Source: an uncultured Actinomycetes bacterium (GTDB lineage Bacteria; Actinomycetota; JAICYB01). Taken from it: DNA of 64,000 nt. Under the pieces are notes generated by a model. The model searched no databases. It was not told the origin of the DNA and saw only the letters and a list, made by a program, of their open reading frames with translations. The DNA lies in the NCBI GenBank assembly GCA_964560135.1, contig CAZLKN010000001.1:30061-94060 (forward strand), read 5' to 3'. Below are positions 1 through 35,471 of this stretch, in pieces. The position numbers and the translations under genes are program-made. The first letter of the stretch is position 1; every line of letters starts with the position of its first letter.

Positions 1-1610
1 GCTTCTTTCGTGCGGGCACGGTCGGCGAGGTCCCGCTCGACCTCGGAGGGGTCGAGCCACCCGAGACGTTGTCTGAGCCTGATGTCGTCCCCCGACCAGA
101 ACGCGGCGAAGGGCGGCATGTCGTGGGTGTTGAGGCTGGCGAAGGCCATCTTCGGGACCGGGGTCACGGGAGGGTCCTCGTCTGGTGTGACCTCGTACTG
201 GAGCACGTAGGTCCGGTGCAGGCCGTGGCGGCGCATCGCCGAGCGCACGCCGCGCGGAACGGTCCCCAGATCCTCGCCGACGATCGCCGTTCCCGCCCGG
301 TGGGCTTCGAGGCACAGGATCGCGTACAGCTCGTCGGAGGGATAGCGGACGTACACGCCGTCGGTGGGTGTGTGCCCCGCCGGGATCCAGTACAGGCGGT
401 GGAGGCCCATGACGTGGTCGATCCGCACCACGCCGGCGTACCGGACCAGCCGGGCGATCACTGTGCGGAGATGATCGTAGCCCTCCTCACGCAGGTGACG
501 GGGATGCAGGGGCATGAACCCCCAGTCCTGCCCGCCGGTGAAGAACCTGTCCGGAGGCGCCCCTGCGGAGGCTCCCATGGCGAAGCAGGAACGGTGCCGC
601 CAGACGTCGTAGCCGTTGGGGTCGGAGCCCACCGGGAGGTCCAGGTAGAGGTCGCCCCGGTCGCGCCGTCCGATGGCCTCCAACTGTTCGGCGACGACCC
701 ACTGGGCGTAGAGGTGGTACCGCACGCGCGGGTCGCGGTCGTCCACGGTGATGCGGCCGTCTCGGGCTCCGGCGGGCCAGTCGGGCCACGGCGCCCGGTG
801 CGCTTCGGTGGCCGCTCGGAAGCCCGCGTAGTCGCGCACCTCCGGCGTGCCGGCGACGAAGTTCGCGAGGGCGCCCCGACGGGCGCCGTCCGTCCGGTCG
901 AAGACGTGCCGCGCGAGCATCTCCAGGACGCGCCGCTTCAGCGCCGCCACGCCACGGTGATCCACCAGCGCGGTGGAACGCAGCGCATCCGTCTCCGCGC
1001 GAAACCCCGGGGAAGCCATGAGCTCCCGTGCTTCCGGGCAGTCGGCCAGATCCGGGATGCGCTCCGGGTCGACGAGGGTCTCATCGAAGAACAGCCGGCT
1101 CGCCGGGGAGTAGGGGCTGGGCTCGAACGGATGCTCGCCCGTGAACCGCGCCAGCAGGGGCAGCGTGGCCACCACGTCGCCGCCGAGTCCGGCGACCCGG
1201 TCCAGGAGGGCTTCCATCTCGGTGAGATCGCCGATCCCAGTGTCGCGTCGCGACCGCAGCGCGTAGAGGGGAGCGAAGATTCCCCACGTCCGGCCGATAC
1301 TCGGGGCCCGCCGGGGGGCCGAGATCACGAGGGATTCGGCGGTGCGGCTCCCGGACTCGGCGTGCAGGCGGTGGTAGCCGAGTGGCAGCGGCTCGGGGAG
1401 GCGCGTGGACGGTGGCTCTCCGTGCCAGGAGCGGTCCTCACCGTGTTCCAGCCGCAGATGGAGCTCGGCGGGGGCCCGGAGCGGTATGACCACATCGCGA
1501 CCCTCCCACGCCACGAGCACGGGCTCCAGGAGCCGCTCCTCCAGCTCGGCCTGCCGCGCCCGCAGCGCCTCGGACGCGCCCCGGGGGTCCTCCAGTGGTG
1601 CTCCGAGCAC
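1..1610 (-). CDS. malQ: 4-alpha-glucanotransferase (amylomaltase, MalQ). The 3' end runs off the window. The 5' end is set at the first canonical in-frame start, GTG at 1610. Conserved N-terminal homology continues upstream to about 1735 with no ATG/GTG/TTG in frame.
   Basis: The minus-strand translation contains RIDHVMGLHRLYWIP and GEDLGTVP, which are hallmark MalQ motifs. An N-terminal segment TDALRSLARSYGVQVSFTDVGG matches the actinobacterial MalQ N-terminus (compare C. glutamicum LNELADLYGVATSYTDYKG). The ORF is absent from the six-frame track because its stop codon lies beyond position 1. Confidence 0.8.
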   Translation of the reverse strand, partial: MLGAPLEDPRGASEALRARQAELEERLLEPVLVAWEGRDVVIPLRAPAELHLRLEHGEDRSWHGEPPSTRLPEPLPLGYHRLHAESGSRTAESLVISAPRRAPSIGRTWGIFAPLYALRSRRDTGIGDLTEMEALLDRVAGLGGDVVATLPLLARFTGEHPFEPSPYSPASRLFFDETLVDPERIPDLADCPEARELMASPGFRAETDALRSTALVDHRGVAALKRRVLEMLARHVFDRTDGARRGALANFVAGTPEVRDYAGFRAATEAHRAPWPDWPAGARDGRITVDDRDPRVRYHLYAQWVVAEQLEAIGRRDRGDLYLDLPVGSDPNGYDVWRHRSCFAMGASAGAPPDRFFTGGQDWGFMPLHPRHLREEGYDHLRTVIARLVRYAGVVRIDHVMGLHRLYWIPAGHTPTDGVYVRYPSDELYAILCLEAHRAGTAIVGEDLGTVPRGVRSAMRRHGLHRTYVLQYEVTPDEDPPVTPVPKMAFASLNTHDMPPFAAFWSGDDIRLRQRLGWLDPSEVERDLADRARTKE

Positions 1611-1729
1611 CCGGAGCGCGCCGGCGATCGCGCGGTTCGACGCCCGCCGGCGGCGGCCCCCGACGTCGGTGAAGGAGACCTGGACGCCGTAGCTGCGGGC
1701 CAGGGACCGGAGGGCGTCGGTGCTCTGGG

Positions 1730-4700
1730 TCAGCTCCGGTCCTCCAGGAGTTGGAGGATGCCCTGGATCGGGATCTTCAGCCAGTCCGGTCTGTTGTTGG
1801 CCTCGTAGGAGATCTCGTACACGGCCTTCTCGATCAGGAAGGTTTCCAGGAGCACCTCGATGTGCCGCGGGTCCTCCGGGATGAAGCGCGATCCGGCGGC
1901 GGTTTCCAGGTAGGTCCCGAGGAAGGAGGCCGAGGTCCACAGGTACCAGAGCCGCGCCCAGGGATCGAGCACGGACGGGTCGTCCGGGAGCAGGCCGCCC
2001 TCCACGTCCTCGGACACGAGCGGGGTGTAGGCGGCGTAGTGGAAGGACCGGAGCATCCCCGCCACGTCGCGCAGGGGAGAGCGCTTGATGCGCCGTTCGC
2101 TCAACGGCCTGGCGGGTTCCCCCTCGAAGTCGATGATAACGAAGTCCTTCCCGGTATAGAGGACCTGGCCCAGGTGGTAGTCACCGTGGCACCGGATCCG
2201 GTCCGTCGTGATCTTCTCCCGGGTGAGCTGGTGGAAGCGCTGCGTGATCTCCTCTTCGAGGTCCAGGACCTGGGCTGCCTCCGGCAGGTGCTTCGCTCGC
2301 TGCCGCAGGAGGTGGAAGGTCCGCTCGGTGAGTGCGCGCATCGACTGGTACAAGGATCGCTGGTAGAGCGTACTGAAGGCCTCGGGAGCGAACGCCGCGT
2401 CCTCGGCCTGGGAGCACAGCGCCAGGTGCAACTCGGCGGTCCGTTGTCCGAGGAGCCGCGCGGAGCCCAGATACGGTCCGATGGCCTCGATGGCCTCGGC
2501 CGGTGGGGTCTGCCCGGCCAGCCGGAGCACGCCGGTCTCCCGCGGGAGGACCACTTCGTCTCGCTCCTCGGCCGGCACGGTCAGCGCCCGCTCGTAGAAC
2601 CGTCCCAGCTCGTCCAGCGTGTATCTCCATGCGTCGCCCTGGTTCGGGACGTACTCCTGGAGGATGGCCAGGGTCCTGGGGCGGCTCCGTCCGCGGCGGT
2701 ACTCGATCGCACCGGCGACCTTCGGCACGTGGGGGAAGGCGGCCCGCTCGGTCAGGAAGCGGCCGATCTCCAGGTCCGGATTGACGCCGGGATCGGGACG
2801 GCGGAAGAGCTTGAGGATGAAACGGTCTCCGTACGCGATGGAGGTGTTGCTCTGCTCGGCCCCCATGACGGACGGCTGCAGCTCCTCGTTGGCGCGCCGC
2901 CGGAGCTTGCTGAACGCGCCCGTGGTGGACGTCGTGAGCTTGCCGTGCTCCCCGGACAGGCTCCGCCGGCGGCCGATCAGCGAGAAGAGCATCTCGGCGA
3001 CGGGCTGCTCCCAGGTGGCGTCGACCAGCAGCTGCTCGCCGTCGCGGGTACGCAGCTTGGCGACCCCCGACCCCGGGTACCACTCGCTGAGCTCCTCGGC
3101 ACGGTCGCCCGACACCACGGTGAGCGGGAGCAGGTAAGTCTCCGCGTCCCCTTCCGTGTACTCCACGGAGACGAAAGCCAGCATCGCCAGCGGCTTGGAG
3201 GACCGGGACGGCTTCCCGCCCTTGGGGCCCTCGACCCGCGCGGGGAGCGGGACCGCCTCCTCCAGTTCGACGGACTTGATCTTCCGTGCCTTGCCACCGA
3301 ACCACCGGCGTCCACGGATCCAGGCGGGCAGGATCTCCTCGAGCTCCGAGCGCCCGCGCTTCGAGAACAGCTGCGTCCACGCTCCCACCTCGATGGTGCG
3401 CAGACGGGGTGTGGGGACGTCCGCCTCCTGGCGGGGCGCCTCCAGGGAGAACCAGTAGAAGGCGTGGGGGCCGAGGGTCAGGAAGTACGGGAGTTCGCCG
3501 ACCGGGGGGAACTCGTGGTGGCCGAACACCTCGACGGGAACCGCGCCGCGGTGGGCAGAGAGGTCGAGCTCGACGTACTGCACGAACCGCGAGAGGTTCG
3601 CGACCACGAGGATGTGTTCGTCCTCGTGGGATCGGAGGAACACGAGCACCTTGCGATTTTCCGGATACAAGAACTCGATCGATCCCCGTCCGAAGGCCTG
3701 ATAGCGCTTCCGGAGAGCGATCAGGCGCTTCGTCCACCACAGCAGCGAGTGGGGGTTGTTCTGCTGAGCCTCCACGTTCACGGCCTCGGCGTGGTACTCG
3801 GGGTCGATGATCACGGGGAGGAACAGCCGCTGCGGGTTGGCGCGGGAGAACCCTGCGTTGCGGTCGGAGGACCACTGCATGGGGGTACGGACGGCGTTAC
3901 GGTCGCCCAGGTAGATGTTGTCGCCCATGCCGATCTCGTCGCCGTAATAGACGATCGGCGTGCCTGGGAGCGAGAAGAGCAGCCCGTTCATGAGCTCGAT
4001 CTTCTTGCGGTCCCCCTGTAGGAGCGGAGCGAGCCGCCGCCGGATGCCGAGGTTGACCCGTGCCTGCGGATCCTCCGCGTAGGCCCGGTACATGTAGTCC
4101 CGCTCCTCGTCGGTCACCATCTCGAGCGTCAGCTCGTCATGGTTGCGGAGGAACATCGCCCACTGCGCGTTGGGCGGTATCGCCGGCGTCTGCTTGAGGA
4201 TGTCGATGATCGGGAACCGGTCCTCCATCCGGATCGCCATGAACATCCGTGGCATCACCGGGAAGTGGAAGGCCATGTTGCATTCGTCGCCGTCGCCGAA
4301 GTAGGTCACGGCGTCCTCGGGCCACTGGTTGGCTTCGGCCAGCAGCATCCGGCTGCCGAACCGCTCGTCGACGTGGGCCCGCAGCTTCTTCAGGAACGCG
4401 TGGGTCTGGGGGAGGTTCTCGCAGTTCGTCCCTTCCTGCTCGTACAGGTAGGGAACGGCGTCGAGGCGCATGCCGTCCACCCCCATGGCGAACCAGAAGT
4501 CCACGACCTCCAGCAGGGCGCGGTGCACCACGGGGTTCTCGAAGTTGAGGTCCGGCTGGTGGGAGTAGAAGCGGTGCCAGTAGTAGGCCTGCGCCTCGTG
4601 ATCCCAGGTCCAATTCGAGACCTCGAAGTCCTGGAAGATGATCCGGGCGTCCTGGTAGCGCTCCGGGGTGTCGCTCCACACGTAGAAGTCGCGCTCGGGC

Positions 4701-5077
4701 GAACCCGCGGGGGCCCGCCTGGCCCGCTGGAACCAGGGGTGCTGATCGGAGGTGTGGTTCAGCACGAGCTCGGTGATCACCCGCAGGCCCTGCCGGCGGG
4801 CCTCGCGCATGAACAACCGGAAGTCGCGCAGTGTGCCGTAGTTGGCGTGGATGTTGGTGTAGTCGGCGGTGTCGTACCCGTCGTCACGCAACGGGGAGGG
4901 GTAGAAGGGGAGGATCCAGATGGCCGTGACGCCGAGATCCTGGAGGTAGTCGAGTTTCTGCGTCAGGCCGCGGAAGTCGCCGATGCCGTCGGAGTCGGAG
5001 TCGTGGAAGGCACGGATGTGCGTCTGGTAGATGACGGCATCCTTGTACCAGAGCGGATCCTCGTTTGATCCGGTCAC
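1730..5077 (-). CDS. treS: Fusion of trehalose synthase (TreS) and maltokinase (Pep2/Mak).
   Basis: The N-terminal roughly 600 aa is a GH13 trehalose synthase (EDPLWYKDAVIYQ, GIGDFRGL, GVDGMRLDAVPYL, NHDELTLEM). The C-terminal roughly 450 aa is maltokinase-like (DFEGEP...RSPLRDVAGMLRSFHYAAY). The start was chosen as GTG at 5077 because of the upstream GAGGGG RBS and because it lies 10 nt downstream of the glgE stop. Confidence 0.85.
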   Translation of the reverse strand: MTGSNEDPLWYKDAVIYQTHIRAFHDSDSDGIGDFRGLTQKLDYLQDLGVTAIWILPFYPSPLRDDGYDTADYTNIHANYGTLRDFRLFMREARRQGLRVITELVLNHTSDQHPWFQRARRAPAGSPERDFYVWSDTPERYQDARIIFQDFEVSNWTWDHEAQAYYWHRFYSHQPDLNFENPVVHRALLEVVDFWFAMGVDGMRLDAVPYLYEQEGTNCENLPQTHAFLKKLRAHVDERFGSRMLLAEANQWPEDAVTYFGDGDECNMAFHFPVMPRMFMAIRMEDRFPIIDILKQTPAIPPNAQWAMFLRNHDELTLEMVTDEERDYMYRAYAEDPQARVNLGIRRRLAPLLQGDRKKIELMNGLLFSLPGTPIVYYGDEIGMGDNIYLGDRNAVRTPMQWSSDRNAGFSRANPQRLFLPVIIDPEYHAEAVNVEAQQNNPHSLLWWTKRLIALRKRYQAFGRGSIEFLYPENRKVLVFLRSHEDEHILVVANLSRFVQYVELDLSAHRGAVPVEVFGHHEFPPVGELPYFLTLGPHAFYWFSLEAPRQEADVPTPRLRTIEVGAWTQLFSKRGRSELEEILPAWIRGRRWFGGKARKIKSVELEEAVPLPARVEGPKGGKPSRSSKPLAMLAFVSVEYTEGDAETYLLPLTVVSGDRAEELSEWYPGSGVAKLRTRDGEQLLVDATWEQPVAEMLFSLIGRRRSLSGEHGKLTTSTTGAFSKLRRRANEELQPSVMGAEQSNTSIAYGDRFILKLFRRPDPGVNPDLEIGRFLTERAAFPHVPKVAGAIEYRRGRSRPRTLAILQEYVPNQGDAWRYTLDELGRFYERALTVPAEERDEVVLPRETGVLRLAGQTPPAEAIEAIGPYLGSARLLGQRTAELHLALCSQAEDAAFAPEAFSTLYQRSLYQSMRALTERTFHLLRQRAKHLPEAAQVLDLEEEITQRFHQLTREKITTDRIRCHGDYHLGQVLYTGKDFVIIDFEGEPARPLSERRIKRSPLRDVAGMLRSFHYAAYTPLVSEDVEGGLLPDDPSVLDPWARLWYLWTSASFLGTYLETAAGSRFIPEDPRHIEVLLETFLIEKAVYEISYEANNRPDWLKIPIQGILQLLEDRS

Positions 5078-5087
5078 GCGCAGCCCC

Positions 5088-7064
5088 TCACATGAAGTAG
5101 TCGAAGTCGTGTTCGGTCCGGACCCGATGCCGGAGCCGGAAGATGTGGGCCGGCATCGAATGGGGATCGATCTCCACGTAGTTGTGCGGCCCATGCCAGA
5201 GGTACCTTGCGTCGGTGAGCAGGTCGTGGACCTGGTACGGGTGCTCCTCGGAGATGCCGAGTTCCGCCAGCGGCAGGCTGACCCAGCCCGACCGGGCATG
5301 GCTCGGATCGAGGTTCACGACCGTCAGGATCGCGTTCTCGCCGTCGTCGCTCACCTTCGAGTACGCGATCAGCTCCTCGTTGTCGATGGGGTGGAATTGC
5401 AGGGTGCGGTCGGTCTGCAGCGCCGGGTTCTCACGCCGGATCCGGTTGATCCGTCCGATCAGATCGGCGAGGCTGCCCGGATCGTCCAGGTTCCAGGACC
5501 GGATCTCGAATTTCTCGGAGTGCAGGTACTCCTCCCTCCCCGGGGCCACCGGCTCGCTCACGCAGAGCTCGAAGGCCGGTCCGTAGATGCCGTAGTTGGC
5601 GCTGAGCGTTGCCGCGAGGATGAGCCTGGACATGAAGGCCGGACGCCCGCCCCACTGGAGCAGCTCCGGCAGGATGTCCGGCGTGTTCGGCCAGAGGTTG
5701 GGACGGAAGAACTCTCCGACCACGGCCATATCGGCGAAGTACGATTCCAGCTCCCACTTGGCGTTCCGCCAGGTGAAGTAGGTGTACGACTGCGTGAACC
5801 CGAGCTTCGCCAGGGCGTACATCACCCGCGGACGCGTGAAGGCTTCGGACAGGAAGATCACCTCGGGATGCCGGGCTTTCACCTCGGCGATCATCCACTC
5901 CCAGAACGGGAAGGCCTTCGTGTGTGGGTTGTCCACGCGGAAGATCGTGATCCCACGGTCGATCCAGAACTCGACGACCCCACGCAAAGCCTCCCACAGC
6001 TCCTGCCACGCCTCGGTCTCGAAGTCGAGCGGATAGATGTCCTCGTAGCGTTTCGGCGGGTTCTCCGCATACCGGATCGTGCCGTCGGGCAGGCGCCGGA
6101 ACCACTCGGGATGCTCCTTCGTCCACGGATGATCGGGTGAGCACTGATAGGCGACGTCCATGGCGACCTCGAGGCCGTGCCGCCGCGCGGCGGCGACGAA
6201 CCGGTCGAAGTCCTCGAGCGTCCCGAGGTCGGGATGGACGGCAGTGTGGCCACCGTCCTCGGAGCCGATCGCCCACGGGCTTCCGACGTCCCCCGGCTCA
6301 CCTCGGGGTGCGTTGTTCTTTCCCTTGCGGTTGGTGGTGCCGATGGGATGGATCGGTGGCAGGTACACGATGTCGAAGCCCATGCGCGCGACGTAGGGGA
6401 GCACGCGCTCGGCGTCCTCGAGGATGCCGTGATTCTCGCCGGAGCCGAAGGACCGCGGGAAGAACTCGTACCACGAGGAGAAGCCCGCCCGCGGCGGGTC
6501 CACGACCACCTCGAGCTCCCGTGGATAGGTGGTGGCGAGGCTGCGATCGGGGTGGGCCTCCATGAGGGCGCGCAGCTCGGGGTCGAAGGCCATCTCCGGG
6601 CCCTCGGCCTCCTCGAGGCGCTTGGCCCAGCTCCGCAGTCGGGTTCGCTGGGGACCCTTGGCGCGCTTGGCGGCGGCGGCGGCGAGCTCGGCCCCCACGA
6701 GCAGGTCCACGGAGACGTCGACGCCGGCGTCCACCTTCTTGCGCAGGTCCCGGTACCAGGTGCGGAACCGGTCCACCCAGCCGACCACGGTGTAGCGGTA
6801 CCGTCCGAGCTCGCCGACACGGAACGAGCCGGACCAGCGGTCGTTCCAGCCGAGCTCCATGGGTGTCTCGTGCCAGTCGCCGGCCTCACCGTCGGCGCGC
6901 CAGCACAGAACGACGGACACGGCATCGTGGCCGTCGGCGAAGGCGTCCGCCTCGACGGCCACCTCCTCCCCGGGCACCCGCTTGATCGGGAACCGGCCGG
7001 CGTCGATCTCGGGGTACACCCCTTCGATCAACACCCGCCGGCGCTCGGCTCCCGCCGTGCTCAC
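5088..7064 (-). CDS. glgE: Alpha-1,4-glucan:maltose-1-phosphate maltosyltransferase (GlgE).
   Basis: The 658-aa protein has an N-terminus VLIEGVYPEIDAGRFPIKRVPGEEVAVEADAFADGHDAV that is typical of GlgE, and a GH13 core. Its GTG start overlaps the upstream mscS stop as GTGA. Confidence 0.85.
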   Translation of the reverse strand: MSTAGAERRRVLIEGVYPEIDAGRFPIKRVPGEEVAVEADAFADGHDAVSVVLCWRADGEAGDWHETPMELGWNDRWSGSFRVGELGRYRYTVVGWVDRFRTWYRDLRKKVDAGVDVSVDLLVGAELAAAAAKRAKGPQRTRLRSWAKRLEEAEGPEMAFDPELRALMEAHPDRSLATTYPRELEVVVDPPRAGFSSWYEFFPRSFGSGENHGILEDAERVLPYVARMGFDIVYLPPIHPIGTTNRKGKNNAPRGEPGDVGSPWAIGSEDGGHTAVHPDLGTLEDFDRFVAAARRHGLEVAMDVAYQCSPDHPWTKEHPEWFRRLPDGTIRYAENPPKRYEDIYPLDFETEAWQELWEALRGVVEFWIDRGITIFRVDNPHTKAFPFWEWMIAEVKARHPEVIFLSEAFTRPRVMYALAKLGFTQSYTYFTWRNAKWELESYFADMAVVGEFFRPNLWPNTPDILPELLQWGGRPAFMSRLILAATLSANYGIYGPAFELCVSEPVAPGREEYLHSEKFEIRSWNLDDPGSLADLIGRINRIRRENPALQTDRTLQFHPIDNEELIAYSKVSDDGENAILTVVNLDPSHARSGWVSLPLAELGISEEHPYQVHDLLTDARYLWHGPHNYVEIDPHSMPAHIFRLRHRVRTEHDFDYFM

Positions 7065-8002
7065 CGCTTCTGGTCCTTCCTCTCGGGGGGCTTCTCACCC
7101 ATGCCGGCCTGACGGATCGCGTCGTCCTCGTAGCGGACGATGATCTGCCGGTGGGGGTAGGGGATCGAGATCCCCGCGTCGTCGTACGCGAGCTTGATCC
7201 GCCGGCGGAACTCGCGACCCGTTTCCCACTGCTTACCCGGCATGGTCTCGATGTACATCTTCACGCTGACCTGGGAGTCGGCGTAGTCGTCGACGCCGAG
7301 TACCGTCAGCGGCCCCAACATCACCCCCGCGAAGTCCGGCTCCTTGCGCATGTCATCGGCCACCGCCCGGACGATCCCGATGGCGCGGTCGACGTCCTCC
7401 TCGTAGGGCACCGGGAGGTCGAACAGGTAGCGGGAGAAGCCGCTCGTGAAGTTCGAGCTGACCGTGACCTCCCCGTTCGGGATCACATGACGCTGCCCGT
7501 TGAGGTCTCGTACGACGGTCGTGCGCAGGGTGATCTTCTCCACGAGCCCCGAGACGCCGGCCAGCTCGACGATGTCGCCGACGTGGTACTGGTCCTCCAG
7601 CAGGATGAAGAACCCCGAGATCACGTCGCGGACGAGGGATTGGGCACCGAACCCGATCGCCACCCCGCCGATCCCGGCCGCGGCCAGCAGGGGGCCGAGG
7701 TCGATCCCGGGGATCTGCCCCAGGATGAGCAGCACGGCCAGGCCCCAGATCAGGGCCGTGGAGGCCGTGCGCAGCACGCCGGCGATGGTCTGGGTGCGCT
7801 TCTGCTCGATGGCGCGCGCGGCGTCCATCCCCTCGACACCGAGCTTCCGCACGAAGCGACGGATCGACAACCGGATGATCCACTGGAGCAGCAGCGCGAT
7901 CCCGATGACCGCGCCGATGCGGATCAGGATGAAGATGTACCCGGGGATGTCCTCGGCTCCGGGGAGGTCCGGGAGCTCCTGGAGGAGTTCAGCCGCGTTC
8001 AT
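7061..8002 (-). CDS. Mechanosensitive ion channel, MscS family.
   Basis: The protein has an N-terminal transmembrane region and a conserved MS_channel core (GIGGVAIGFGAQSLVRDVISGFFILLEDQYHVGDIVEL...RTTVVRDLNGQRHVIPNG). A strong RBS (AGGAGGGGAGG) precedes the ATG. The stop overlaps the glgE start. Confidence 0.85.
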   Translation of the reverse strand: MNAAELLQELPDLPGAEDIPGYIFILIRIGAVIGIALLLQWIIRLSIRRFVRKLGVEGMDAARAIEQKRTQTIAGVLRTASTALIWGLAVLLILGQIPGIDLGPLLAAAGIGGVAIGFGAQSLVRDVISGFFILLEDQYHVGDIVELAGVSGLVEKITLRTTVVRDLNGQRHVIPNGEVTVSSNFTSGFSRYLFDLPVPYEEDVDRAIGIVRAVADDMRKEPDFAGVMLGPLTVLGVDDYADSQVSVKMYIETMPGKQWETGREFRRRIKLAYDDAGISIPYPHRQIIVRYEDDAIRQAGMGEKPPERKDQKR

Positions 8003-8049
8003 CGCCTCCCCTCCTGTCCGCCTGTTCCGTGTTCGGCTACCCGACGAGA

Positions 8050-9027
8050 CTATCGTGCCGCGTCATCGGAAGGCCGTCCGGGGGCGCCTCCCTCGGGGGC
8101 GAGGGTCGCGTCGGGTGCAGGGGGAGCGGCGCGTGTGCCGGGGCGGCGCTCGTCCGGCCACAGCCGCTCGATCTCGGCGTTGAGCTCGGCCCCCACGAGG
8201 ATGGCCACGGCGGTCAGGAACAGCCACAGGAGGATCGCGATCGGGGTGGCCAGCGGGCCGTAGACGGTGTCGCCCTGGATGGTCCACGCCACGTAGAGAC
8301 GGAGCGCGCCGGCCCCCGCGAGCCAGATGGCCGCCGCGACCATCGCGCCGGGAAGGTCCCGGATCCAGCGGGTCCCCCGCGGAGGCGCCGCATGGTAGAA
8401 GGTCGCGAGCATCCCGATCCCGAGCATCCCGACCACGGGCCAGTACAGAACCCGCCACGCCGTGGCCATCGCGGCATCGAGCCCGAGCGGCCGCACGAGC
8501 GCCTCTCCCAACCGGGGTCCGGCGATGAGCACGGGCATCAGGACAGCGATGGCGAGCACCGCCCCGAAGGTCATCCCCAGGGCCACGATGCGTCGCCGGA
8601 CCGCCGAGCGGGTATCAGGTTCGTTGTAGGCCATGGCGACGGCGTCGTTCAGAACCCGGACGGCGCGGGAGGAGGACCACAACGCGATGACGGCACCGAT
8701 CGACACCACGTCGGCCCGGCCCTCGAACAGCAGCTCGTCGATGGTGGGCTCGAGCCACTGCTCACGTGTCTGGGGGGTGAGGAACGAGCCGGCCCCACCC
8801 AGGATCTGCTCGCGGAGCGCATCGAGCGTGTCGGGACCCAGCGCTTCTCCGACGAACCCGAGGGTGCCGAGGATCGCGAGCAGGAACGGCGGCAGTGACA
8901 GGAGGGTGAAGAACGCGACCTCCGCCCCGAGCCCGATCACCCGGTCGCCGTTCGCAGCCCCCACCGTACGGGTGACGAGCGTCAGGGCCGCTTGGGCGCC
9001 GCTCGGCCGATCAGGGTTCGTGCCCAC
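8050..9027 (-). CDS. YihY/BrkB (virulence factor BrkB / RNase BN-like) family membrane protein.
   Basis: The sequence shows the YihY signature (GAEVAFFTLLSLPPFLLAILG) and has multiple transmembrane segments. The start is GTG. Confidence 0.75.
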   Translation of the reverse strand: MGTNPDRPSGAQAALTLVTRTVGAANGDRVIGLGAEVAFFTLLSLPPFLLAILGTLGFVGEALGPDTLDALREQILGGAGSFLTPQTREQWLEPTIDELLFEGRADVVSIGAVIALWSSSRAVRVLNDAVAMAYNEPDTRSAVRRRIVALGMTFGAVLAIAVLMPVLIAGPRLGEALVRPLGLDAAMATAWRVLYWPVVGMLGIGMLATFYHAAPPRGTRWIRDLPGAMVAAAIWLAGAGALRLYVAWTIQGDTVYGPLATPIAILLWLFLTAVAILVGAELNAEIERLWPDERRPGTRAAPPAPDATLAPEGGAPGRPSDDAAR

Positions 9028-9095
9028 GGTCCGAGTCTACGCCGGGGCGTCGAGCGCCTTGCCCGCTTCTCGTGTGGGACGGTAGCGTCGTGGAC

Positions 9096-10271
9096 ATGCG
9101 GCTCGACAACGACACGATCCTCGAGCTGTGCCGGCTCCAGGATCCGGTCGGGGTCATCTCGATCTACGTCGGCACGACCCCGGAGCGACAGACCGGCTAT
9201 CAGCCCCAGTGGGTTCTGGCGATTCGCAACCAGATCCGCGAGCTCCGCGCCCGCGTCAAGGAAGAGGGCCCTCGGGAACGGTGGGTGGCGGTCCACGAGC
9301 GTCTCGACGGGTTGAACTCGGAGCTCGAAGGCCTCCTGGACCCCAAGCTGCGTGGTCGGGGACGCGCGCTGTTCATCCCCGTGTCCTCCGCGGACGTCTA
9401 CAGCATCGTCCTGCAGATGCCGCTGCCCGACACCGTCGTTCTGGAGAAGCGCGCGTTCGTCCGTCCGTTGGTGGTCGCGATGGACGAAGGGCGCGCGGCG
9501 GGCGTGGTCTTCGTGGACCGCTCCGGTCTGCGCCTGCTCGAATGGCGGTTCGGCGAGGTCGAGGAGATCTCGGAGCATCCCTTCGTGGACGAGTCCAGCG
9601 AGTGGCGCGAGATGAAGGGCCCGGCACAGACCAATCCCGCCCTGGACCAGCAGGCATCCGTGCAGCGGGACACCTTCGAGGACCGCCTCGACGAGCACCG
9701 GGCGAAGTTCGTCAAGCAGGTCGCGGTGGAGGTGCAGAAGGAGGTATCCGCGCGATCGTGGGACCGGCTGGTGGTCGCCGGTGAGGCACGCCTCGCGCAG
9801 CCGTTCGCGGACGTGGTCCGGGTCAACGGGTTGGAGATCCTGCGGACGGATCATGATCTGCGGCATGCCGGTTCCCACGAGGTGGACGAAGCCGTCGCGC
9901 CGTTGCTGACCGAGTCCCAGCGTCGCCTCGAGCTGTCCCTCGTGGAGCGGGCGAAGGAGCTGGGTCTGTCCGGACGGCAGGGCGCCCTCGGGCTGTCCGA
10001 CACGCTGGGGGCGCTCGGCGAGGGCCGCGTGCAGCACCTGCTCTACGACGACAGCCGGGATTTCACCGGGTTCCATACCTCCGACGGACGTCTGTTCCAC
10101 GACGCCGACGGGAACGCACCCTCGCGTGCGGAGCTGGAGCCCGAACCGCACCTGACCGAGCGGATGATCGAGCGCACGTTGGAAACGGGGGGGCGTGTGA
10201 CGCCCGTCGAGGGACCGGCGGCGGAGGCGCTGGAACCGCACGGCGGGGTCGCCGCGATCCTGCGGTGGTGA
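9096..10271 (+). CDS. Bacterial eRF1/Pelota/Vms1-like protein (putative Vms1/Ankzf1-family peptidyl-tRNA hydrolase or baeRF-type rescue factor).
   Basis: The N-terminus (LDNDTILELCRLQDPVGVISIYV) resembles that of Vms1-like bacterial proteins. There is a central RNaseH-like block (AAGVVFVDRSGLRLLEW) followed by a GxxQ-type loop (KGPAQTN, nt 9618-9629). The C-terminal GALGLSDTLGALGEGRVQHLLYD matches the eRF1/Pelota domain-3 pattern. Alternative in-frame starts are GTG at 9072 and 9090. Confidence 0.5.
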   Translation: MRLDNDTILELCRLQDPVGVISIYVGTTPERQTGYQPQWVLAIRNQIRELRARVKEEGPRERWVAVHERLDGLNSELEGLLDPKLRGRGRALFIPVSSADVYSIVLQMPLPDTVVLEKRAFVRPLVVAMDEGRAAGVVFVDRSGLRLLEWRFGEVEEISEHPFVDESSEWREMKGPAQTNPALDQQASVQRDTFEDRLDEHRAKFVKQVAVEVQKEVSARSWDRLVVAGEARLAQPFADVVRVNGLEILRTDHDLRHAGSHEVDEAVAPLLTESQRRLELSLVERAKELGLSGRQGALGLSDTLGALGEGRVQHLLYDDSRDFTGFHTSDGRLFHDADGNAPSRAELEPEPHLTERMIERTLETGGRVTPVEGPAAEALEPHGGVAAILRW

Positions 10272-10747
10272 CCAACGGTTCACCCGGGGCTCCACGTCGG
10301 CTGCTGCGGAGCCGTTCCGACCGGCTCATCGCGGGGGTCTGCGGGGGTCTCGGCCACTACCTCGGGATCGACCCGGTCTGGGTCCGCGTAGCCACGATCC
10401 TCATCATCCTCCTGCCCGGCATCGGCATCGTCGCCGTGGGCATCGCCTACCTCGTGGGGGTCGTGGTGGTTCCGGAGGAGCAGGCACCCGAACCACTCCC
10501 GCAGGGCGGGACGGCGTCCGCGGCGGCGGCACACCACACGCAGGCCCCTCCGCCACCGTCCCCGTCGCGGCCACCCGATGACGGACGCGACCAGGGCCGG
10601 CTCCTCGTCGGCGGGTTCCTGGTCGCCCTGGGAACGGTGTTGCTGGCCCGGATCTACCTGCCCGAGATCTTCACCGTCGCGGTGATCGGCCCCATCGTGT
10701 TGATCGCGCTGGGGGTGCTGGTCGTCGCGCAGGGGCTCCGGCGATGA
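10265..10747 (+). CDS. PspC-domain membrane protein (phage-shock / envelope-stress family).
   Basis: The PspC domain motif is RLLRSRSDRLIAGVCGGLGHYLGIDPVWVRV, followed by a transmembrane helix and a Pro-rich tail. The GTG start overlaps the stop of the upstream eRF1-like gene. Confidence 0.8.
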   Translation: MVTNGSPGAPRRLLRSRSDRLIAGVCGGLGHYLGIDPVWVRVATILIILLPGIGIVAVGIAYLVGVVVVPEEQAPEPLPQGGTASAAAAHHTQAPPPPSPSRPPDDGRDQGRLLVGGFLVALGTVLLARIYLPEIFTVAVIGPIVLIALGVLVVAQGLRR

Positions 10748-11436
10748 GATCGGGACGGCTGATCGTCGGATCGTTCCTCGTGGTCGCCGGCGTCGCCTGG
10801 CTCATGGATTCGCTGGGGCTCGTCGCACTCTCCGCCGGTATGGTGCTTTCGGTCGGGTTGATCCTCGTCGGGGTGGCGTTGCTCGTCACATCCGCCCGGC
10901 CCGGCGGCCACGGAGGGTTGATCATCCTCGGCGTGATCCTGACCCTGGTGCTCGGTCTGGGCACGACGGTGCGTGACCGGGCTGATGCCGCGCTGTTCCG
11001 CGGTGGGATCGGTGACCGGGTGGAGCGGCCCAGCACCCGCGCGGAGGCGCAACGCACCTTCGAGCTCGGCGCAGGCAACCTCAGACTCGACTTGACGGCT
11101 CTGGGCGCGACCCGCTCGCCGATCCGCGTCCGGGCCCGCGTGGGCACCGGCGAGCTGACGGTTGTCGTGCCCTCGCATGCGGCCGTCCGGATCACCTCGC
11201 ACGTGCAGGTGGGCCGCATCACGGTGTTCGGGCAGGAGCGTGGGTCGGGGCTCGACGTGACCGACACCTTCAGGGGAGGTGACGGCGGTCCCGTGCGGCT
11301 CAACCTCGACCTGCGCGCCGGCGCTGGTCGCATCGTGGTCGACGGCCGGCCGACACCGGACGCTCCGCCGGAGCCCTACAGGCGGGCACCGTCAGAACCC
11401 CGGGTCGGGCCGATCGAGGAGCCCTCCGATGCCTGA
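10744..11436 (+). CDS. LiaF-like / DUF2154-type 'toast-rack' membrane protein (cell-envelope stress module).
   Basis: The protein has two N-terminal transmembrane helices, then a beta-rich C-terminal domain (GAGNLRLDLTALG...VRARVGTGELTVVVPSHAAVRITSHVQVGRITVFG). It overlaps pspC as ATGA. Confidence 0.65.
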   Translation: MRSGRLIVGSFLVVAGVAWLMDSLGLVALSAGMVLSVGLILVGVALLVTSARPGGHGGLIILGVILTLVLGLGTTVRDRADAALFRGGIGDRVERPSTRAEAQRTFELGAGNLRLDLTALGATRSPIRVRARVGTGELTVVVPSHAAVRITSHVQVGRITVFGQERGSGLDVTDTFRGGDGGPVRLNLDLRAGAGRIVVDGRPTPDAPPEPYRRAPSEPRVGPIEEPSDA

Positions 11437-11671: not shown

Positions 11672-12718
11672 ATGCTGCGCGTCGGGCTGGCGGGGTGCGG
11701 GTTCATCGGACGCGTGCACGCATGGGCGCTGTGGGCGCTGCGCCGGTCGAGCCTCGTGGACGCCGCCCTGGTGGCGGTGTTCGACCACGACCCCGAGCGC
11801 GCGGATCAGCTCGCGGCTCCACACGAGGCACGGACGGTCTCCAGCTCTGAGGCCCTGTGCGACGCGGTCGATGTCGTGTACGTGTGCACCCCCACGGCAG
11901 AGCACGCCGCGATCGTGGACGTTGCGGTCTCGCGGGGACTGGCGATCTTCTGCGAGAAGCCGTTGGCGACCGACCTCGCGGGGGCCGAACGGATCGCTAC
12001 GGCGCTCCGGCGGGTTCCGCACCAGGTCGGACTCGTGCTCAGGGCCGCTCCCGTCTTCCGGCGCCTGAACGAGGTGCTGGCCTCCGGTGTGTACGGCCGG
12101 GTGATGACGCTGCACCTGCGGGACGACCAGTTCTTCCCGACCCAGGGCCACTACGCCTCGTCGTGGCGGGCACAGGTGGACGTCGCCGGCGGCGGAACGC
12201 TGATCGAGCATTCGATCCACGACCTCGACCTGTTCCGCTGGCTGCTCGGCGATCCCGAGGAGATCTCTTGCCGTACGGCCTCCTTCTTCGGGCATCCGGG
12301 CATCGAGGATCTCGCTGTGGCCACGCTCACCTACCCTGGTGGCGTCATCGCCGGCCTCACCAGCGTCTGGCACCAGGTCCTCACGCGCCCGTCGACCCGG
12401 CGGCTCGAGGTGTTCTCCGAGCAGGCCCTGATCTGGACGGACGACGACTACACGGGACCGCTGCACATCGAAACCTCGGACGGGAGCGAGACGCTGGCGT
12501 GCCCGCCGGAGCCCTGGGTGGACCAGCTTCCCGTTCCCGAAGGTGTCCGCCGGCCACTCGGTCACTACGCGCAGGCCACCAAGGCCTTCCTGGAACGCAT
12601 CCACGGGACGGCGTCCTCGGCGTCGCTCGCGGGGGCCGAGGACGCCCTAGCCGCGCACCGGCTGGTGGCCGAGGCGTACCGGTCCGCGCTGGATGGTGGC
12701 CGGCCGCTGCGCCTGTAG
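11672..12718 (+). CDS. Gfo/Idh/MocA family NAD(P)-dependent oxidoreductase.
   Basis: The N-terminal Rossmann motif is MLRVGLAGCGFIGRVHA, and EKPLA is present. The protein is 348 aa. Confidence 0.8.
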   Translation: MLRVGLAGCGFIGRVHAWALWALRRSSLVDAALVAVFDHDPERADQLAAPHEARTVSSSEALCDAVDVVYVCTPTAEHAAIVDVAVSRGLAIFCEKPLATDLAGAERIATALRRVPHQVGLVLRAAPVFRRLNEVLASGVYGRVMTLHLRDDQFFPTQGHYASSWRAQVDVAGGGTLIEHSIHDLDLFRWLLGDPEEISCRTASFFGHPGIEDLAVATLTYPGGVIAGLTSVWHQVLTRPSTRRLEVFSEQALIWTDDDYTGPLHIETSDGSETLACPPEPWVDQLPVPEGVRRPLGHYAQATKAFLERIHGTASSASLAGAEDALAAHRLVAEAYRSALDGGRPLRL

Positions 12719-15250: not shown

Positions 15251-15435
15251 GCGTGCCCACAGATGATCGGATCCCGCTTCCCGCGGCGAACCGTTGGCGT
15301 GCAGCGGCGAACGCAGACCCACCCTGACTGTTCTCCTTCCTGCCCCCACCAGGCCGTTCGTCGGTGCACCACGGGTATCGGCACGGGCAGGCCGGACCTT
15401 TAGGGCATCGAGGACATGGCGCTCCGAAGAAGGGT

Positions 15436-17829
15436 TCAGGCCACGGTGTCGCTGTGCGTCAGCAGGCTGTCGACCTCGCTGGCCGGCAGCGGTCGGAACA
15501 GGTGGAAGCCCTGGACCACGTCGCACCCGATGCGGCGCAGGTACTGGAGCTGATCCATGGTCTCGACACCCTCGGCCACCACCTCGATACCGAGGTCCTG
15601 GGAGAGGTTGATGACGGAGCGGACGATCGCCATGTCCTCGGCGCTGTGCGTGAGGCCGGACACGAACGAGCGGTCGATCTTCAGGATGGAGAAGGGGAAG
15701 CGCTTCAGGTAGCTGAGGGACGAGTATCCGAGGCCGAAATCATCGATCGCCAGGCGCACCCCCAGCGCGTGGATCTGCTCCGTCAGCTCGAGCATCGCCA
15801 GGTCGTCCCGCATCACCACGCTCTCCGTGACCTCCAGCACCAGCGGCTGGCGCGGGCCCCCGTCGTTGAGGACGGCGGTCAGGTGGGCCATGAAGTCGTG
15901 TTGGCGCAGTTCCTTGGCCGACAGGTTCACGCAGATCGCCAGCGGCTCGTCGCCTTGTCCGTTCCAGATCTGGACCTGCCGGTAAGCCTGCTCCAGGACC
16001 CATCGACCCAGCGGGACGATCAGGCCTGTCTCCTCGGCCAGCGGGATGAACTCCGCGGGGAGCAGCCGCCCGCGTGCCGGATGTTCCCAGCGAACCAGCG
16101 CCTCGAGCCCTGCCATCCGCCCGGTCCGCAACGAGACCAGGGGCTGATACAGGAGCTCGAGTTCCCCGCCCCGGATGGCGCGTCGTAGTTCGGTCTCCAT
16201 CTCCAGACGCCGCCGGGCTCGCGCGGTCATCTCCGAGCGGTACAGCTCCACCCGGCTCCCACCGAGCTCCTTGGCCCGGTACATGGCCAGATCGGCGTCC
16301 TGGATGAAGTCCCGGTCGCGATCCGAGGCGGGACCGTAGGCGATGCCGATCGACGCCGAGACGAACACGTCCCGGCCGTCGATCGAGAAGCGGTCCTGGA
16401 GCTCCTCGCACAGCCGCATGGCTGCCAGCACCGCGCCCTGTTCGCCGTCGACGCCCTCGACGAGCACGGTGAACTCGTCGCCGCCGAAGCGGGCGATCGT
16501 GTCCGCCGGGCGCAGGCACGCGGTGAGCCGGTCCGCCACCGCTCGCAGGAGCTCGTCCCCGACGTCGTGCCCGAGGCTGTCGTTGACCTTCTTGAAGTGG
16601 TCGAGGTCGAGGAAGAGCACGGCGATAGCGCCCGGGCTCCGGGCTTTGCGCTCCAGGCAGTGGTTGAGGCGGTCGAGGAAAAGGGCGCGGTTCGGAAGCC
16701 CGGTCAGCGCGTCGTGGAAGGCCTGGTGGGTGAGCGTCTCCTCGAAGGCCCGGCGCTCGGTGAACCTGCGGGCCACGGTGAGCGCCGCGCCCGCCTGGAG
16801 GGCGAGCAGCTCGAGACACTCCACCTCGTCGGCCGAGACGATCCGGTCGTTCCGGGTCCCTGCGACCAGAACCGCCACCAGCTCACCCGCGGACCAGATC
16901 GGGGTCGCGATGACCGTCCGGTAGCCGAGCTCGCGGATCGCCGGGATGCCCTTGTGCCATGCCGCATAGTCACCGACCACCACCGTCATCTGCCGTCGGT
17001 AGGCGAGGCCCGCGATCCCCGTGTCGAACGGATGATCGGCGGCATAGCCTTCAGGGAGGCCGCGGGGATGCATCACGCGATACCTGGCGCTGCGCTCGTC
17101 GAACAGACAGATCTCGGTGCCGTCGAAGCCGATCGCCACCGTCGCCTCGGCCACCGAGTCGAGGACCTTGCCCACCTCCGGACTGGTCATGCTGCGGCTC
17201 GCCGCGGCGACGATGCCGAGGAGTTCGGCCCGGCGCTCTGAACCTTCGACGACGACGCCGTAGGCGTCCACCTGCTTGCGGAGGTTACGGGCCAGATAGC
17301 CGCTCGCGAGGGCGACGATCAGGATGATCCCGAGGCGGTAGGACACTGATTCGGGACGGAGGGTGACCGCGTCGTGGACCTGTGAGGCGGCGAACTCACG
17401 GACCGGATACAGGAACGCGATCGCGCCCCAGGTGAGCATCGCTCCGCGCAGGCCACCGCGTAGCGCGCCCTCGAGTGGCGGTATCACCAGAAGCGCCCAG
17501 AGTGCGCCGGTCGGGTCGAAGGCGAAGATCCAGGTGATCGCGAAGATGATGAGGACGTCGGCCACGAGTTCGAGGCTGCCGATCCGCTGGAGGGTCTTCG
17601 GGTCGCGGAACCGCCGCCCGTACAACGAGAGGACGTTGACGGCCGTCAGGGCGGCGGCGACGCCCAGCGCGGTCGCGAGCTTCGGGAAGGGCACCGAGAT
17701 CCCGGCGGGAGGACGGTAGAAGGTGAACTGGACGATGGCGAAGGGAACCGCCAGCCAGCGGACGCGGCGCATCGCGGCATCCGTCGACAGGAGCTCGTCT
17801 CTCAGACGGGTTCCATGTGGCGACCTCAC
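15436..17829 (-). CDS. Membrane-anchored GAF-GGDEF-EAL protein (diguanylate cyclase/phosphodiesterase).
   Basis: The protein has an N-terminal transmembrane region, a GAF-like region, GGDEF (ARFGGDEF with an RPAD I-site) and EAL ([21 protein letters not shown]). An alternative start is the Met at 17772. Confidence 0.8.
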
Positions 17830-17961
17830 CGGCTCCCCCGTTCCTGGTCGACGTCGACTTGTCCGGATATCCCATCGGAACGTCCGGATCCGGATCGCCG
17901 GTTGCTCCCCTGAACGGACATAACGGACGAACCGGGTCGCATCCCCCGGAGGCGCCTCGGA

Positions 17962-22634: not shown

Positions 22635-22712
22635 CGGCCCAGTGTGGCAGGTGGCGCGGAAAGGGTGCACGCTCTCAGGGGGACCCCGACCGGGCAGTCG
22701 AAGGGAGGAGCG

Positions 22713-25235: not shown

Positions 25236-25303
25236 GCCTCCATGGTGCACCGTCGGGCACCGGTTAGGCTCGGGGGAGGGCAACGGATGAGGGAGGGCTG
25301 CTC

Positions 25304-35382: not shown

Positions 35383-35471
35383 CCTGACATGAACACCCGA
35401 CCTGCGTAGCGGCAGGAGATGTGCCCTCCCGGGGCGAAGGGTGGCCCACGGAGTCACACGGGAGGGCACGC

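What the first reader, a model, noticed from the sequence alone, without database searches (positions are those of the whole stretch)
1..8002. Mechanosensitive channel gene heads a four-gene alpha-glucan operon (mscS-glgE-treS/pep2-malQ)
All four genes are on the minus strand with overlapping or near-abutting boundaries: GTGA at 7061-7064, then a 10-nt gap, then the treS stop abutting the malQ N-terminus. An MscS channel that is translationally coupled to GlgE, a TreS-maltokinase fusion and amylomaltase suggests a coordinated response to osmotic downshift. The channel would open, and trehalose, a compatible solute, would be converted into maltose-1-P and then alpha-glucan. The TreS-Mak fusion (about 1115 aa) places both steps that feed GlgE in one polypeptide.
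Basis: partly seen in the sequence, partly recalled or inferred. Interest (0 to 1): 0.5.

Follow-up and report, generated by a model that had tools for sequence, protein, structure and literature searches.

The report
Channel gene joined to alpha-glucan operon
An ordinary set of genes that turns the sugar trehalose into a glycogen-like polymer sits directly behind a pressure-release channel gene in a small group of uncultured bacteria; the arrangement is real and recurs in relatives, but a physiological link is only a reasonable guess.

Summary
On the minus strand lie MscS (7061-8002), GlgE (5088-7064, GTGA overlap), a 1115-aa TreS-maltokinase fusion (1730-5077, 10-nt gap) and MalQ (1-1733, cut by the window edge).

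Three details are wrong or incomplete:
- mscS does not head the cluster. A co-directional YihY/BrkB membrane gene (8050-9027) lies 47 nt upstream and is conserved there in relatives.
- The cluster is not demonstrably four genes. malQ is truncated, and the closest unlinked relatives continue with glgB.
- malQ has no canonical start codon, only a CTG overlapping the treS-mak stop.

The mscS-glgE junction is absent from 68 testable GTDB GlgE loci. It recurs in three other diverged lineages of the same MscS clade (83%, 58% and about 55% MscS identity), mostly with 4-nt overlaps. Five sister lineages instead carry a small PF01910 gene after mscS, also overlapping.

The best reading is that a standard GlgE operon was appended to an older yihY-mscS cassette and is probably co-transcribed with it. 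The osmotic-downshift rationale is plausible but untested. All parts are known families. Interest is modest.

The parts
8050..9027 (-). yihY/brkB-family membrane protein gene (325 aa, GTG start). It is the likely first gene of the co-directional cluster.
   Evidence: PF03631 scores 169.4 bits against a cut-off of 33.7. GC3 is 0.88. A YihY gene lies directly upstream of mscS in L085, L087, L120, L121, L124 and L125.
8003..8049 (-). 47-nt yihY-mscS spacer with a strong Shine-Dalgarno-like GGAGGGGAGG a few nt before the mscS ATG.
   Evidence: The sequence was read. There is no terminator-like site. The fold is no better than shuffles, z = +0.94.
7061..8002 (-). mscS: a small-conductance mechanosensitive channel family protein of 313 aa.
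   Evidence: PF21088, PF00924 and PF21082 all score above their gathering scores. The best solved relative is the MscS chain of PDB 3t9n/3udc, E = 2e-49. The best NCBIfam model is NF047601 at 209.7 bits, below its equivalog cut-off of 500.
7061..7064 (-). GTGA overlap: the glgE GTG start overlaps the mscS TGA stop. AGGAAGGA lies about 9 nt upstream.
   Evidence: The same GTGA junction is seen directly in L125. L084 has a 4-nt overlap by its gene coordinates.
5088..7064 (-). glgE: alpha-1,4-glucan:maltose-1-phosphate maltosyltransferase, 658 aa.
   Evidence: PF11896 scores 203 bits and PF21702 scores 115 bits, with a GH13 core. The match to the solved GlgE isoform 1 chain 5vsj is 615 bits, with FRVDNPHTK and FL(S/A)EAFTRP aligned.
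5078..5087 (-). 10-nt glgE-treS spacer (GGGGCTGCGC). A GAGGGG Shine-Dalgarno-like motif spans the glgE stop.
1730..5077 (-). treS-mak (treS/pep2) fusion: trehalose synthase plus maltokinase, 1115 aa, GTG start.
   Evidence: TIGR02456 scores 900.9 against 678.35, and TIGR02457 scores 494 against 375.05. PF00128, PF16657 and PF18085 also match. The match to solved TreS chain 5x7u is 886 bits.
1730..1733 (-). CTGA junction: the treS-mak TGA stop overlaps the only plausible malQ start, a CTG at 1733-1731. GGAGGA lies 6 nt upstream.
1..1733 (-). malQ: 4-alpha-glucanotransferase (amylomaltase). 577 aa are visible and the 3' end is cut by the window edge.
   Evidence: PF02446 scores 267 bits and PF21226 also matches. 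TIGR00217 scores 258.6 against 205.65. Homologues in L118 and L119 are 675 and 673 aa and are followed by glgB.

Best explanation
This is a lineage-specific operon fusion. The standard GlgE alpha-glucan operon is glgE, then treS-mak, then malQ, and it very probably continues with glgB beyond the left edge of the window. Here it lies immediately downstream of an older membrane-protein pair, yihY-mscS.

All five visible genes are co-directional, with gaps of 47, -4, 10 and -4 nt. Each junction has a Shine-Dalgarno-like motif and none has a terminator-like site. The cluster is therefore most likely transcribed as one unit from a promoter upstream of yihY, with translational coupling at the overlapping junctions.

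The enzymes work as in the known GlgE pathway:
- TreS converts trehalose to maltose.
- Mak phosphorylates maltose to maltose-1-phosphate.
- GlgE adds maltosyl units to alpha-1,4-glucan.
- MalQ disproportionates maltooligosaccharides and can supply maltose independently of trehalose.

The most likely adaptive sense is inferred, not shown. Cells that have loaded solutes would co-express a tension-gated release valve (MscS) with the route that converts the compatible solute trehalose into osmotically inert polymer. That would prepare them for osmotic downshift.

Sub-confidences: gene identities about 0.98; appended to an older yihY-mscS cassette about 0.8; co-transcription about 0.7; osmotic rationale about 0.35.
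For: - Gene identities are supported.
- Junction sequences and Shine-Dalgarno-like motifs were read. A simple scan found no terminator-like site in any intergenic junction over 1-10500. The yihY-mscS spacer is unstructured, and there is no Rfam element.
- mscS-glgE recurs in L084 (MscS 83%, GlgE 88% identity), L085 (58% and 69%, as yihY-mscS-glgE with a 2-nt gap) and L125/L126 (53-56% and 55-57%). L125 reads yihY-mscS-glgE with ATGA and GTGA overlaps and has the same divergent baeRF and GFO flank as the window.
- yihY-mscS is the older unit. Five sister lineages have (K+ channel)-yihY-mscS or K+ channel-mscS followed by PF01910 instead of glgE.
- The closest unlinked GlgE loci read glgE, treS/mak, malQ, glgB and, in L118, glgX.
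- The MscS-linked GlgEs group together in a neighbour-joining tree of the N-terminal region, though weakly (52% and 15% bootstrap). This is consistent with one origin and vertical retention.
- From the literature: the glgE-treS/pep2-glgB operon converts trehalose to branched glucan. MalQ can feed maltose to Pep2. [quoted passage not shown]
Against: - There are no transcript data. An internal promoter inside mscS or yihY cannot be excluded, because the sigma-70 consensus scan is uninformative for a 70% GC organism.
- The adjacency is absent from 0 of 68 testable GTDB GlgE loci, from L118 and L119, and from 30 JGI MscS loci. It is not a general feature of the pathway.
- mscS is followed by an unrelated PF01910 gene in sister lineages. 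Four of the five overlap mscS by 4 nt and L124 has a 64-nt gap. Tight packing downstream of mscS therefore occurs without any obvious functional link.
- The MscS tree does not resolve whether the junction arose once or more than once (bootstraps 10-58%).
- MscS gating is post-translational and fast, so co-transcription is not needed for a downshift response.
- No paper linking MscS to the GlgE operon was found.
Confidence: 0.45

Rival explanations
1. Neutral juxtaposition. A rearrangement placed the GlgE operon behind yihY-mscS, replacing or displacing PF01910. The arrangement has simply been inherited. Overlapping stop and start codons reflect genome compaction in a high-GC lineage. There may be read-through co-transcription, but MscS/YihY and alpha-glucan synthesis share no physiology.
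For: - In sister lineages the same mscS stop is overlapped by an unrelated 96-aa PF01910 gene.
- Short overlaps are frequent among co-directional pairs in this window.
- The adjacency is absent everywhere outside one clade.
- The GlgE tree is compatible with a single event followed by vertical descent.
Against: - The junction has persisted while MscS diverged to about 55% and the GlgE N-domain to about 56% identity. By general comparative-genomics knowledge, gene order outside operons usually decays at that divergence.
- The tight junction is maintained in all four lineages.
- The neighbourhood has an osmotic and envelope theme, with a K+ channel, MscS, PspC and LiaF. That makes trehalose disposal a coherent addition.
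Confidence: 0.4
2. Adjacent but separately transcribed. glgE, treS-mak and malQ have their own promoter inside the 3' part of mscS, as unlinked GlgE operons have their own promoters. yihY-mscS is then an independent unit whose transcript ends by a non-canonical terminator.
For: - GlgE operons elsewhere start at glgE with their own upstream region (L118 and L119).
- Promoters of this organism cannot be recognised with the available consensus scan.
Against: - The 4-nt overlap leaves no intergenic room.
- No terminator-like hairpin lies in or after mscS.
- The overlap is conserved in L084 and L125.
Confidence: 0.15
3. Pathway-specific conduit. The YihY-MscS pair serves the glucan pathway directly. 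It might act as a release valve or exporter for trehalose, maltose or toxic maltose-1-phosphate, or take part in exporting GlgE-made glucan to the cell surface. This would be analogous to the MscS-family glutamate exporter MscCG (author's background knowledge).
For: The only support is the conserved adjacency in four lineages, together with the unknown function of YihY/BrkB proteins.
Against: - yihY-mscS exists without glgE in at least five sister lineages and is usually paired with a K+ channel gene. This points to a general ion and osmotic role.
- The channel is a minimal MscS of 313 aa with three Pfam domains and no extra domain of the MscCG type.
- No literature support was found.
Confidence: 0.05

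Closest known systems
GlgE pathway operon (glgE, treS/pep2, glgB) of Pseudomonas aeruginosa PAO1 (PA2151-53) and actinomycetes
   Same: - The enzymes and order are the same: glgE followed by a fused treS-maltokinase gene. In the 80 GTDB loci, 57 of 58 adjacent TreS and Mak genes are fused, and glgE lies directly upstream of treS in 54.
- The chemistry is the same: trehalose to maltose to maltose-1-phosphate to alpha-1,4-glucan (PMC8084333).
   Different: - Here malQ follows treS-mak, as in L118, L119 and 6 of 80 GTDB loci (Thermoanaerobaculia and one Thermoleophilia MAG). In PAO1 malQ sits in the glgA operon.
- glgB is not visible because of the window edge.
- Two membrane-protein genes, yihY and mscS, precede glgE. 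This was not seen in any of the 68 testable GTDB loci.
MscS small-conductance mechanosensitive channel family (closest solved chain: PDB 3t9n/3udc; also E. coli MscS 2oau)
   Same: It has a three-domain MscS core: TM2/3, the beta-domain and the C-terminal domain. Its size is similar at 313 aa. The match to 3t9n is E = 2e-49 over residues 64-289.
   Different: - It scores below the NCBIfam equivalog cut-off (209.7 against 500), so it is a family member and not an assigned orthologue.
- Its gene context, yihY upstream and glgE overlapping downstream, is unusual.
K+ channel (Ion_trans_2/TrkA), yihY, mscS, PF01910 cassette of sister lineages (L086, L087, L120, L121, L124)
   Same: - The MscS is orthologous at 54-63% identity.
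- YihY lies upstream.
- The divergent GFO, PspC and LiaF flank is shared.
   Different: In the window lineage the gene overlapping the mscS stop is glgE and not the 96-aa PF01910 gene. No PF01910 homologue or K+ channel gene was found by tblastn in the 64-kb window.

Membership tests
MscS mechanosensitive channel family | The MscS core domains (TM2/3, beta-domain, C-terminal domain) score above the Pfam gathering scores. | tested here: met
   PF21088 scores 25.0 against 23.1, PF00924 scores 67.2 against 20.2, and PF21082 scores 33.1 against 21. The match to PDB 3t9n is E = 2e-49.
MscS mechanosensitive channel family | Assignment to a curated MscS equivalog (NCBIfam cut-off). | tested here: not met
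   The best model, NF047601, scores 209.7 bits against a cut-off of 500. This is membership at family level only.
MscS mechanosensitive channel family | A heptameric, tension-gated channel that rescues cells from hypo-osmotic shock. | not testable with these tools
   This needs electrophysiology or a downshock assay in a channel-less E. coli strain.
GlgE (alpha-1,4-glucan:maltose-1-phosphate maltosyltransferase, GH13_3) | GlgE-specific N/S and C domains flanking a GH13 catalytic core. | tested here: met
   PF11896 scores 203.1 bits, PF21702 scores 115 bits and PF00128 scores 34.4 bits.
GlgE (alpha-1,4-glucan:maltose-1-phosphate maltosyltransferase, GH13_3) | Conserved catalytic-region motifs aligned with a solved GlgE. 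| tested here: met
   The match to 5vsj is 615 bits. FRVDNPHTK and FLSEAFTRP align with FRVDNPHTK and FLAEAFTRP of the solved chain. That these motifs hold the nucleophile Asp and the acid/base Glu is my own background knowledge.
TreS-maltokinase (TreS/Pep2) fusion | The N-terminal TreS domain scores above the curated cut-off. | tested here: met
   TIGR02456 scores 900.9 against 678.35 over residues 10-545. The match to 5x7u is 886 bits.
TreS-maltokinase (TreS/Pep2) fusion | The C-terminal maltokinase domain scores above the curated cut-off, in the same ORF. | tested here: met
   TIGR02457 scores 494 against 375.05 over residues 559-1111. PF18085 (Mak_N_cap) also matches. It is a single ORF, 1730-5077.
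MalQ 4-alpha-glucanotransferase (GH77) | The GH77 catalytic domain and MalQ N-domain score above cut-offs. | tested here: met
   PF02446 scores 267.2 bits and PF21226 scores 42.6 bits. TIGR00217 scores 258.6 against 205.65.
MalQ 4-alpha-glucanotransferase (GH77) | A complete ORF with a canonical start codon. | tested here: not met
   The 3' end is cut by the window edge. The only start candidate at the conserved N-terminus is the CTG at 1733-1731.
YihY/BrkB family membrane protein | The PF03631 domain scores above the gathering score. | tested here: met
   It scores 169.4 bits against 33.7 over residues 27-288.
Single operon yihY-mscS-glgE-treS/mak-malQ | Same strand, short or negative intergenic distances, and no terminator-like sites between the genes. 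| tested here: met
   The gaps are 47, -4, 10 and -4 nt. The only terminator-like hit lies inside treS-mak (3191-3177), and one hit is fewer than the shuffles give (mean 2.0).
Single operon yihY-mscS-glgE-treS/mak-malQ | The mscS-glgE adjacency is conserved in related genomes. | tested here: inconclusive
   It is present in 4 of 9 sampled lineages of the MscS clade: the window, L084, L085 and L125/L126. It is absent from 5 sister lineages, from 68 of 68 testable GTDB GlgE loci and from 30 JGI MscS loci.
Single operon yihY-mscS-glgE-treS/mak-malQ | A polycistronic transcript is observed. | not testable with these tools
   No transcript data are available.
Canonical GlgE operon (glgE, treS/pep2, glgB) | glgB is present in the same cluster. 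| not testable with these tools
   The window ends inside malQ. The relatives L118 and L119 have glgB directly after malQ.

The most novel reading that the evidence does not exclude
In this uncultured clade the YihY-MscS pair has been recruited as a working part of trehalose and alpha-glucan metabolism. One form would be an osmotically co-regulated 'exit module', in which the channel vents solutes while TreS-Mak-GlgE polymerise trehalose. A more radical form would be a dedicated conduit or safety valve for pathway sugars such as trehalose, maltose or maltose-1-phosphate.
Probability: 0.12. Interest if true: 0.6.

Novelty: new variant of a known kind. Interest (0 to 1): 0.3.

Why it matters
If the co-expression is functional, it would be a genomic hint of how bacteria that use trehalose as a compatible solute dispose of it on osmotic downshift. 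Solute release through a channel would act in parallel with polymerisation into osmotically inert glucan. It would also give a first functional context for a YihY/BrkB protein.

If the arrangement is neutral, it is a useful caution. Four-nucleotide overlaps in compact high-GC genomes do not by themselves indicate shared function, as the mscS-PF01910 junction in sister lineages shows. In either case the enzymes and the channel are ordinary members of known families.

Tried and rejected
- **GTDB scan with GlgE.** The best hits were only 62% identical, and the window's own genome or close relatives were not returned. It served only as a broad negative control (0 of 68).
- **JGI metagenome scan with MscS.** It returned 30 loci of at most 61% identity, none with GlgE. 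It added no new linked lineage.
- **MscS neighbour-joining tree (a first attempt timed out).** Deep nodes have 10-58% bootstrap support. Single and multiple origins of the junction could not be distinguished.
- **GlgE N-domain tree.** Monophyly of the linked GlgEs is only weakly supported.
- **Promoter scan.** It found zero sigma-70-like sites, which is uninformative at 70% GC.
- **Rfam.** No riboswitch or leader was found.
- **Cluster look-up for names or accessions of the source genome.** It returned no names. The taxonomy (probably Actinomycetota) rests only on the names of the nearest GlgE and MscS homologues and on typical actinobacterial genes in the window (DUF222-HNH and PIG-L).
- **Literature.** No paper links MscS or YihY with GlgE or trehalose operons.
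- **Plus-strand ORFs.** I considered and rejected the long plus-strand ORFs 69-1808 and 1751-4021 as genes. They fail the GC3/GC2 coding test and are antisense shadows of malQ and treS-mak.
- **Alternative treS start.** I rejected the ATG at 5299. It would overlap glgE by 212 nt, and its N-terminal extension falls outside the TreS model.
Full report
**Observation**

The region 1-9027 carries five co-directional minus-strand genes. Their codon-position GC is typical of coding sequence in a roughly 70% GC genome (GC3 0.79-0.93). Profile searches identify them as follows.

| Gene | Coordinates | Evidence |
|---|---|---|
| YihY/BrkB family membrane protein | 8050-9027 | PF03631, 169 bits |
| MscS-family channel, 313 aa | 7061-8002 | three MscS Pfam domains above gathering score; closest solved chain 3t9n, E = 2e-49 |
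| GlgE, 658 aa | 5088-7064 | PF11896 and PF21702; 615 bits to solved GlgE chain 5vsj, with FRVDNPHTK and FLSEAFTRP aligned |
| TreS-maltokinase fusion, exactly 1115 aa | 1730-5077 | TIGR02456 900.9 against 678, TIGR02457 494 against 375 |
| MalQ amylomaltase | 1-1733 | TIGR00217 258.6 against 205.65; runs off the left edge of the window |

GTGA lies at 7061-7064, and a 10-nt spacer separates the glgE stop from the treS GTG at 5077. The conserved MalQ N-terminus begins at the treS-mak stop. Each junction has a Shine-Dalgarno-like motif:
- GGAGGGGAGG before the mscS ATG.
- AGGAAGGA before the glgE GTG.
- GAGGGG before the treS GTG.
- GGAGGA before the malQ CTG.

**Corrections to the observation**

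First, mscS does not head the cluster. yihY ends 47 nt upstream on the same strand. No terminator-like site lies between them, and the spacer folds no better than shuffled sequence (z = +0.94).

Second, 'four-gene' is an artefact of the window boundary. Only 577 aa of MalQ are visible, against 673-675 aa in homologues. The two closest unlinked GlgE loci read glgE, treS/mak, malQ, glgB and, in L118, glgX (L118 and L119).

Third, malQ has no ATG, GTG or TTG near its conserved N-terminal helix. The only candidate is a CTG at 1733-1731. It overlaps the treS-mak TGA as CTGA and has GGAGGA 6 nt upstream. Homologues start at the equivalent place with TTG or GTG.

**Is the adjacency conserved?**

I scanned one genome per GTDB species with GlgE, which gave 80 loci at no more than 62% identity. 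In these loci:
- glgE lies directly upstream of treS in 54.
- TreS and Mak are fused in 57 of the 58 loci where they are adjacent.
- malQ directly follows mak in 6.

The enzyme part of the cluster, including the fusion, is therefore ordinary. It matches the described glgE-treS/pep2-glgB operon (PMC8084333).

None of the 68 loci with at least 1.5 kb of upstream sequence has a co-directional MscS next to glgE. Only two have any MscS-like hit within 10 kb, and both are on the other strand. Thirty JGI metagenome loci with MscS relatives of at most 61% identity also lack GlgE.

Looking up the contexts of the closest MscS homologues gave a sharper picture.

| Locus | MscS identity to window | Context |
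|---|---|---|
| L084 | 83% | mscS-glgE, 4-nt overlap (GlgE 88%) |
| L085 | 58% | yihY-mscS-glgE, 2-nt gap (GlgE 69%) |
| L125/L126 | 53-56% | yihY-mscS-glgE, ATGA and GTGA overlaps; same divergent baeRF and GFO flank as the window |
| L121 | 63% | yihY-mscS-PF01910 |
| L120 | 61% | K+ channel-yihY-mscS-PF01910 |
| L086 | 57% | K+ channel-mscS-PF01910 |
| L124 | 55% | yihY-mscS-PF01910 (64-nt gap) |
| L087 | 54% | K+ channel-yihY-mscS-PF01910 |

In the five sister lineages the gene after mscS is a 96-98-aa PF01910 (Thiamine_BP/YkoF-like) gene. It overlaps the mscS stop by 4 nt in four of the five. These lineages usually carry an Ion_trans_2/TrkA K+ channel gene and yihY upstream, and they share the divergent GFO, PspC and LiaF flank.

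yihY-mscS is therefore the older unit, and glgE was appended to it in part of the clade.

A neighbour-joining tree of MscS leaves the deep nodes unresolved (10-58% bootstrap). A tree of the GlgE N-terminal region groups the MscS-linked GlgEs together, but weakly (52% and 15%). This is compatible with one origin and vertical retention and does not prove it.

**Interpretation**

The structural conclusion is well supported. This is a lineage-specific fusion of a standard GlgE operon to a yihY-mscS cassette. The lineage is uncultured and probably belongs to the Actinomycetota. That assignment rests on the names of the nearest homologues and on the DUF222-HNH and PIG-L genes in the window.

Co-transcription is likely, at about 0.7. 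The evidence is the overlapping or near-abutting junctions kept in four diverged lineages, the absence of terminator-like sites and the absence of an Rfam element.

- The neighbourhood has an osmotic and envelope theme, with a K+ channel in relatives and PspC and LiaF nearby.
- The GlgE pathway is known to convert trehalose into glucan.

It remains an inference. MscS gating does not depend on transcription. MalQ gives the operon a trehalose-independent input. The same mscS stop is overlapped by an unrelated gene in sister lineages, and short overlaps are common among co-directional genes in this window. I put the osmotic rationale at about 0.35 and a neutral, inherited juxtaposition at about 0.4. 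No paper linking MscS or YihY to the GlgE pathway was found.

**Novelty and verdict**

Every protein is an ordinary member of a known family, and the TreS-Mak fusion is the norm. What is new is the gene-order variant, yihY-mscS fused to the head of the GlgE operon. It is confined to a small clade but retained there over substantial divergence. This is a new variant of a known kind and of modest interest (0.3). Transcript mapping and a resolved gain-and-loss history of the junction would decide between selection and accident.

Noticed in passing
window 1730-1745 (minus strand): malQ has no ATG, GTG or TTG at its conserved N-terminus. The only candidate start is the CTG at 1733-1731, which overlaps the treS-mak stop as CTGA and has a GGAGGA Shine-Dalgarno motif 6 nt upstream. 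Homologues in L012, L014, L018, L019, L023 and L036 start with TTG or GTG at the same position. Possible explanations are a rare CTG initiation, termination-reinitiation or a sequencing error.
   Followed up: partly
L086 2816-5091; L087 3424-6551; L120 3-2732; L121; L124: Sister lineages carry a conserved cassette of a K+ channel (Ion_trans_2/TrkA), yihY, mscS and PF01910 (a 96-aa Thiamine_BP/YkoF-like gene). PF01910 overlaps the mscS stop by 4 nt in four of the five. Neither the K+ channel nor PF01910 gives a tblastn hit in the 64-kb window.
   Followed up: partly
window 9072-11436 (+): A bacterial archaeo-eukaryotic release-factor-like gene (baeRF family 10/5) lies divergent from yihY, with only about 44 nt between the called starts. 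It is overlapped at its end by a PspC-domain gene (10265-10747) and then by a LiaF-like gene (10744-11436). The baeRF and GFO flank is conserved next to yihY-mscS-glgE in L125.
   Followed up: partly
window 12647-15739 and 15436-17961 (minus strand): Two large tandem c-di-GMP turnover genes (PAS-PAS-GGDEF-EAL and GAF-GGDEF-EAL) lie about 4.6 kb from the cluster. The coordinates given are the stop-to-stop limits of the two reading frames.
   Followed up: no
window 23215-25283: There is a convergent pair of a LigD primase-polymerase domain gene (+) and an ATP-dependent DNA ligase gene (-), overlapping by about 16 nt at their 3' ends. These are non-homologous end-joining components encoded as separate genes.
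   Followed up: no
window 20557-22670 (minus strand): An ArgZ-like arginine dihydrolase (LOR/SDH N-domain plus ArgZ C-domains) lies next to a DDAH-like amidinotransferase-fold gene.
   Followed up: no
window 28064-28930 (+) and 35421-37268 (+): Two ORFs of 288 and 615 aa have coding-type GC3 but no Pfam match at E <= 1e-5.
   Followed up: no
L118 11988-12278: In the closest unlinked GlgE locus (Actinomycetota MAG GCA_035573915.1), a 96-aa ORF with no Pfam hit is called on the opposite strand between glgE and treS-mak. It interrupts the otherwise tight operon.
   Followed up: no
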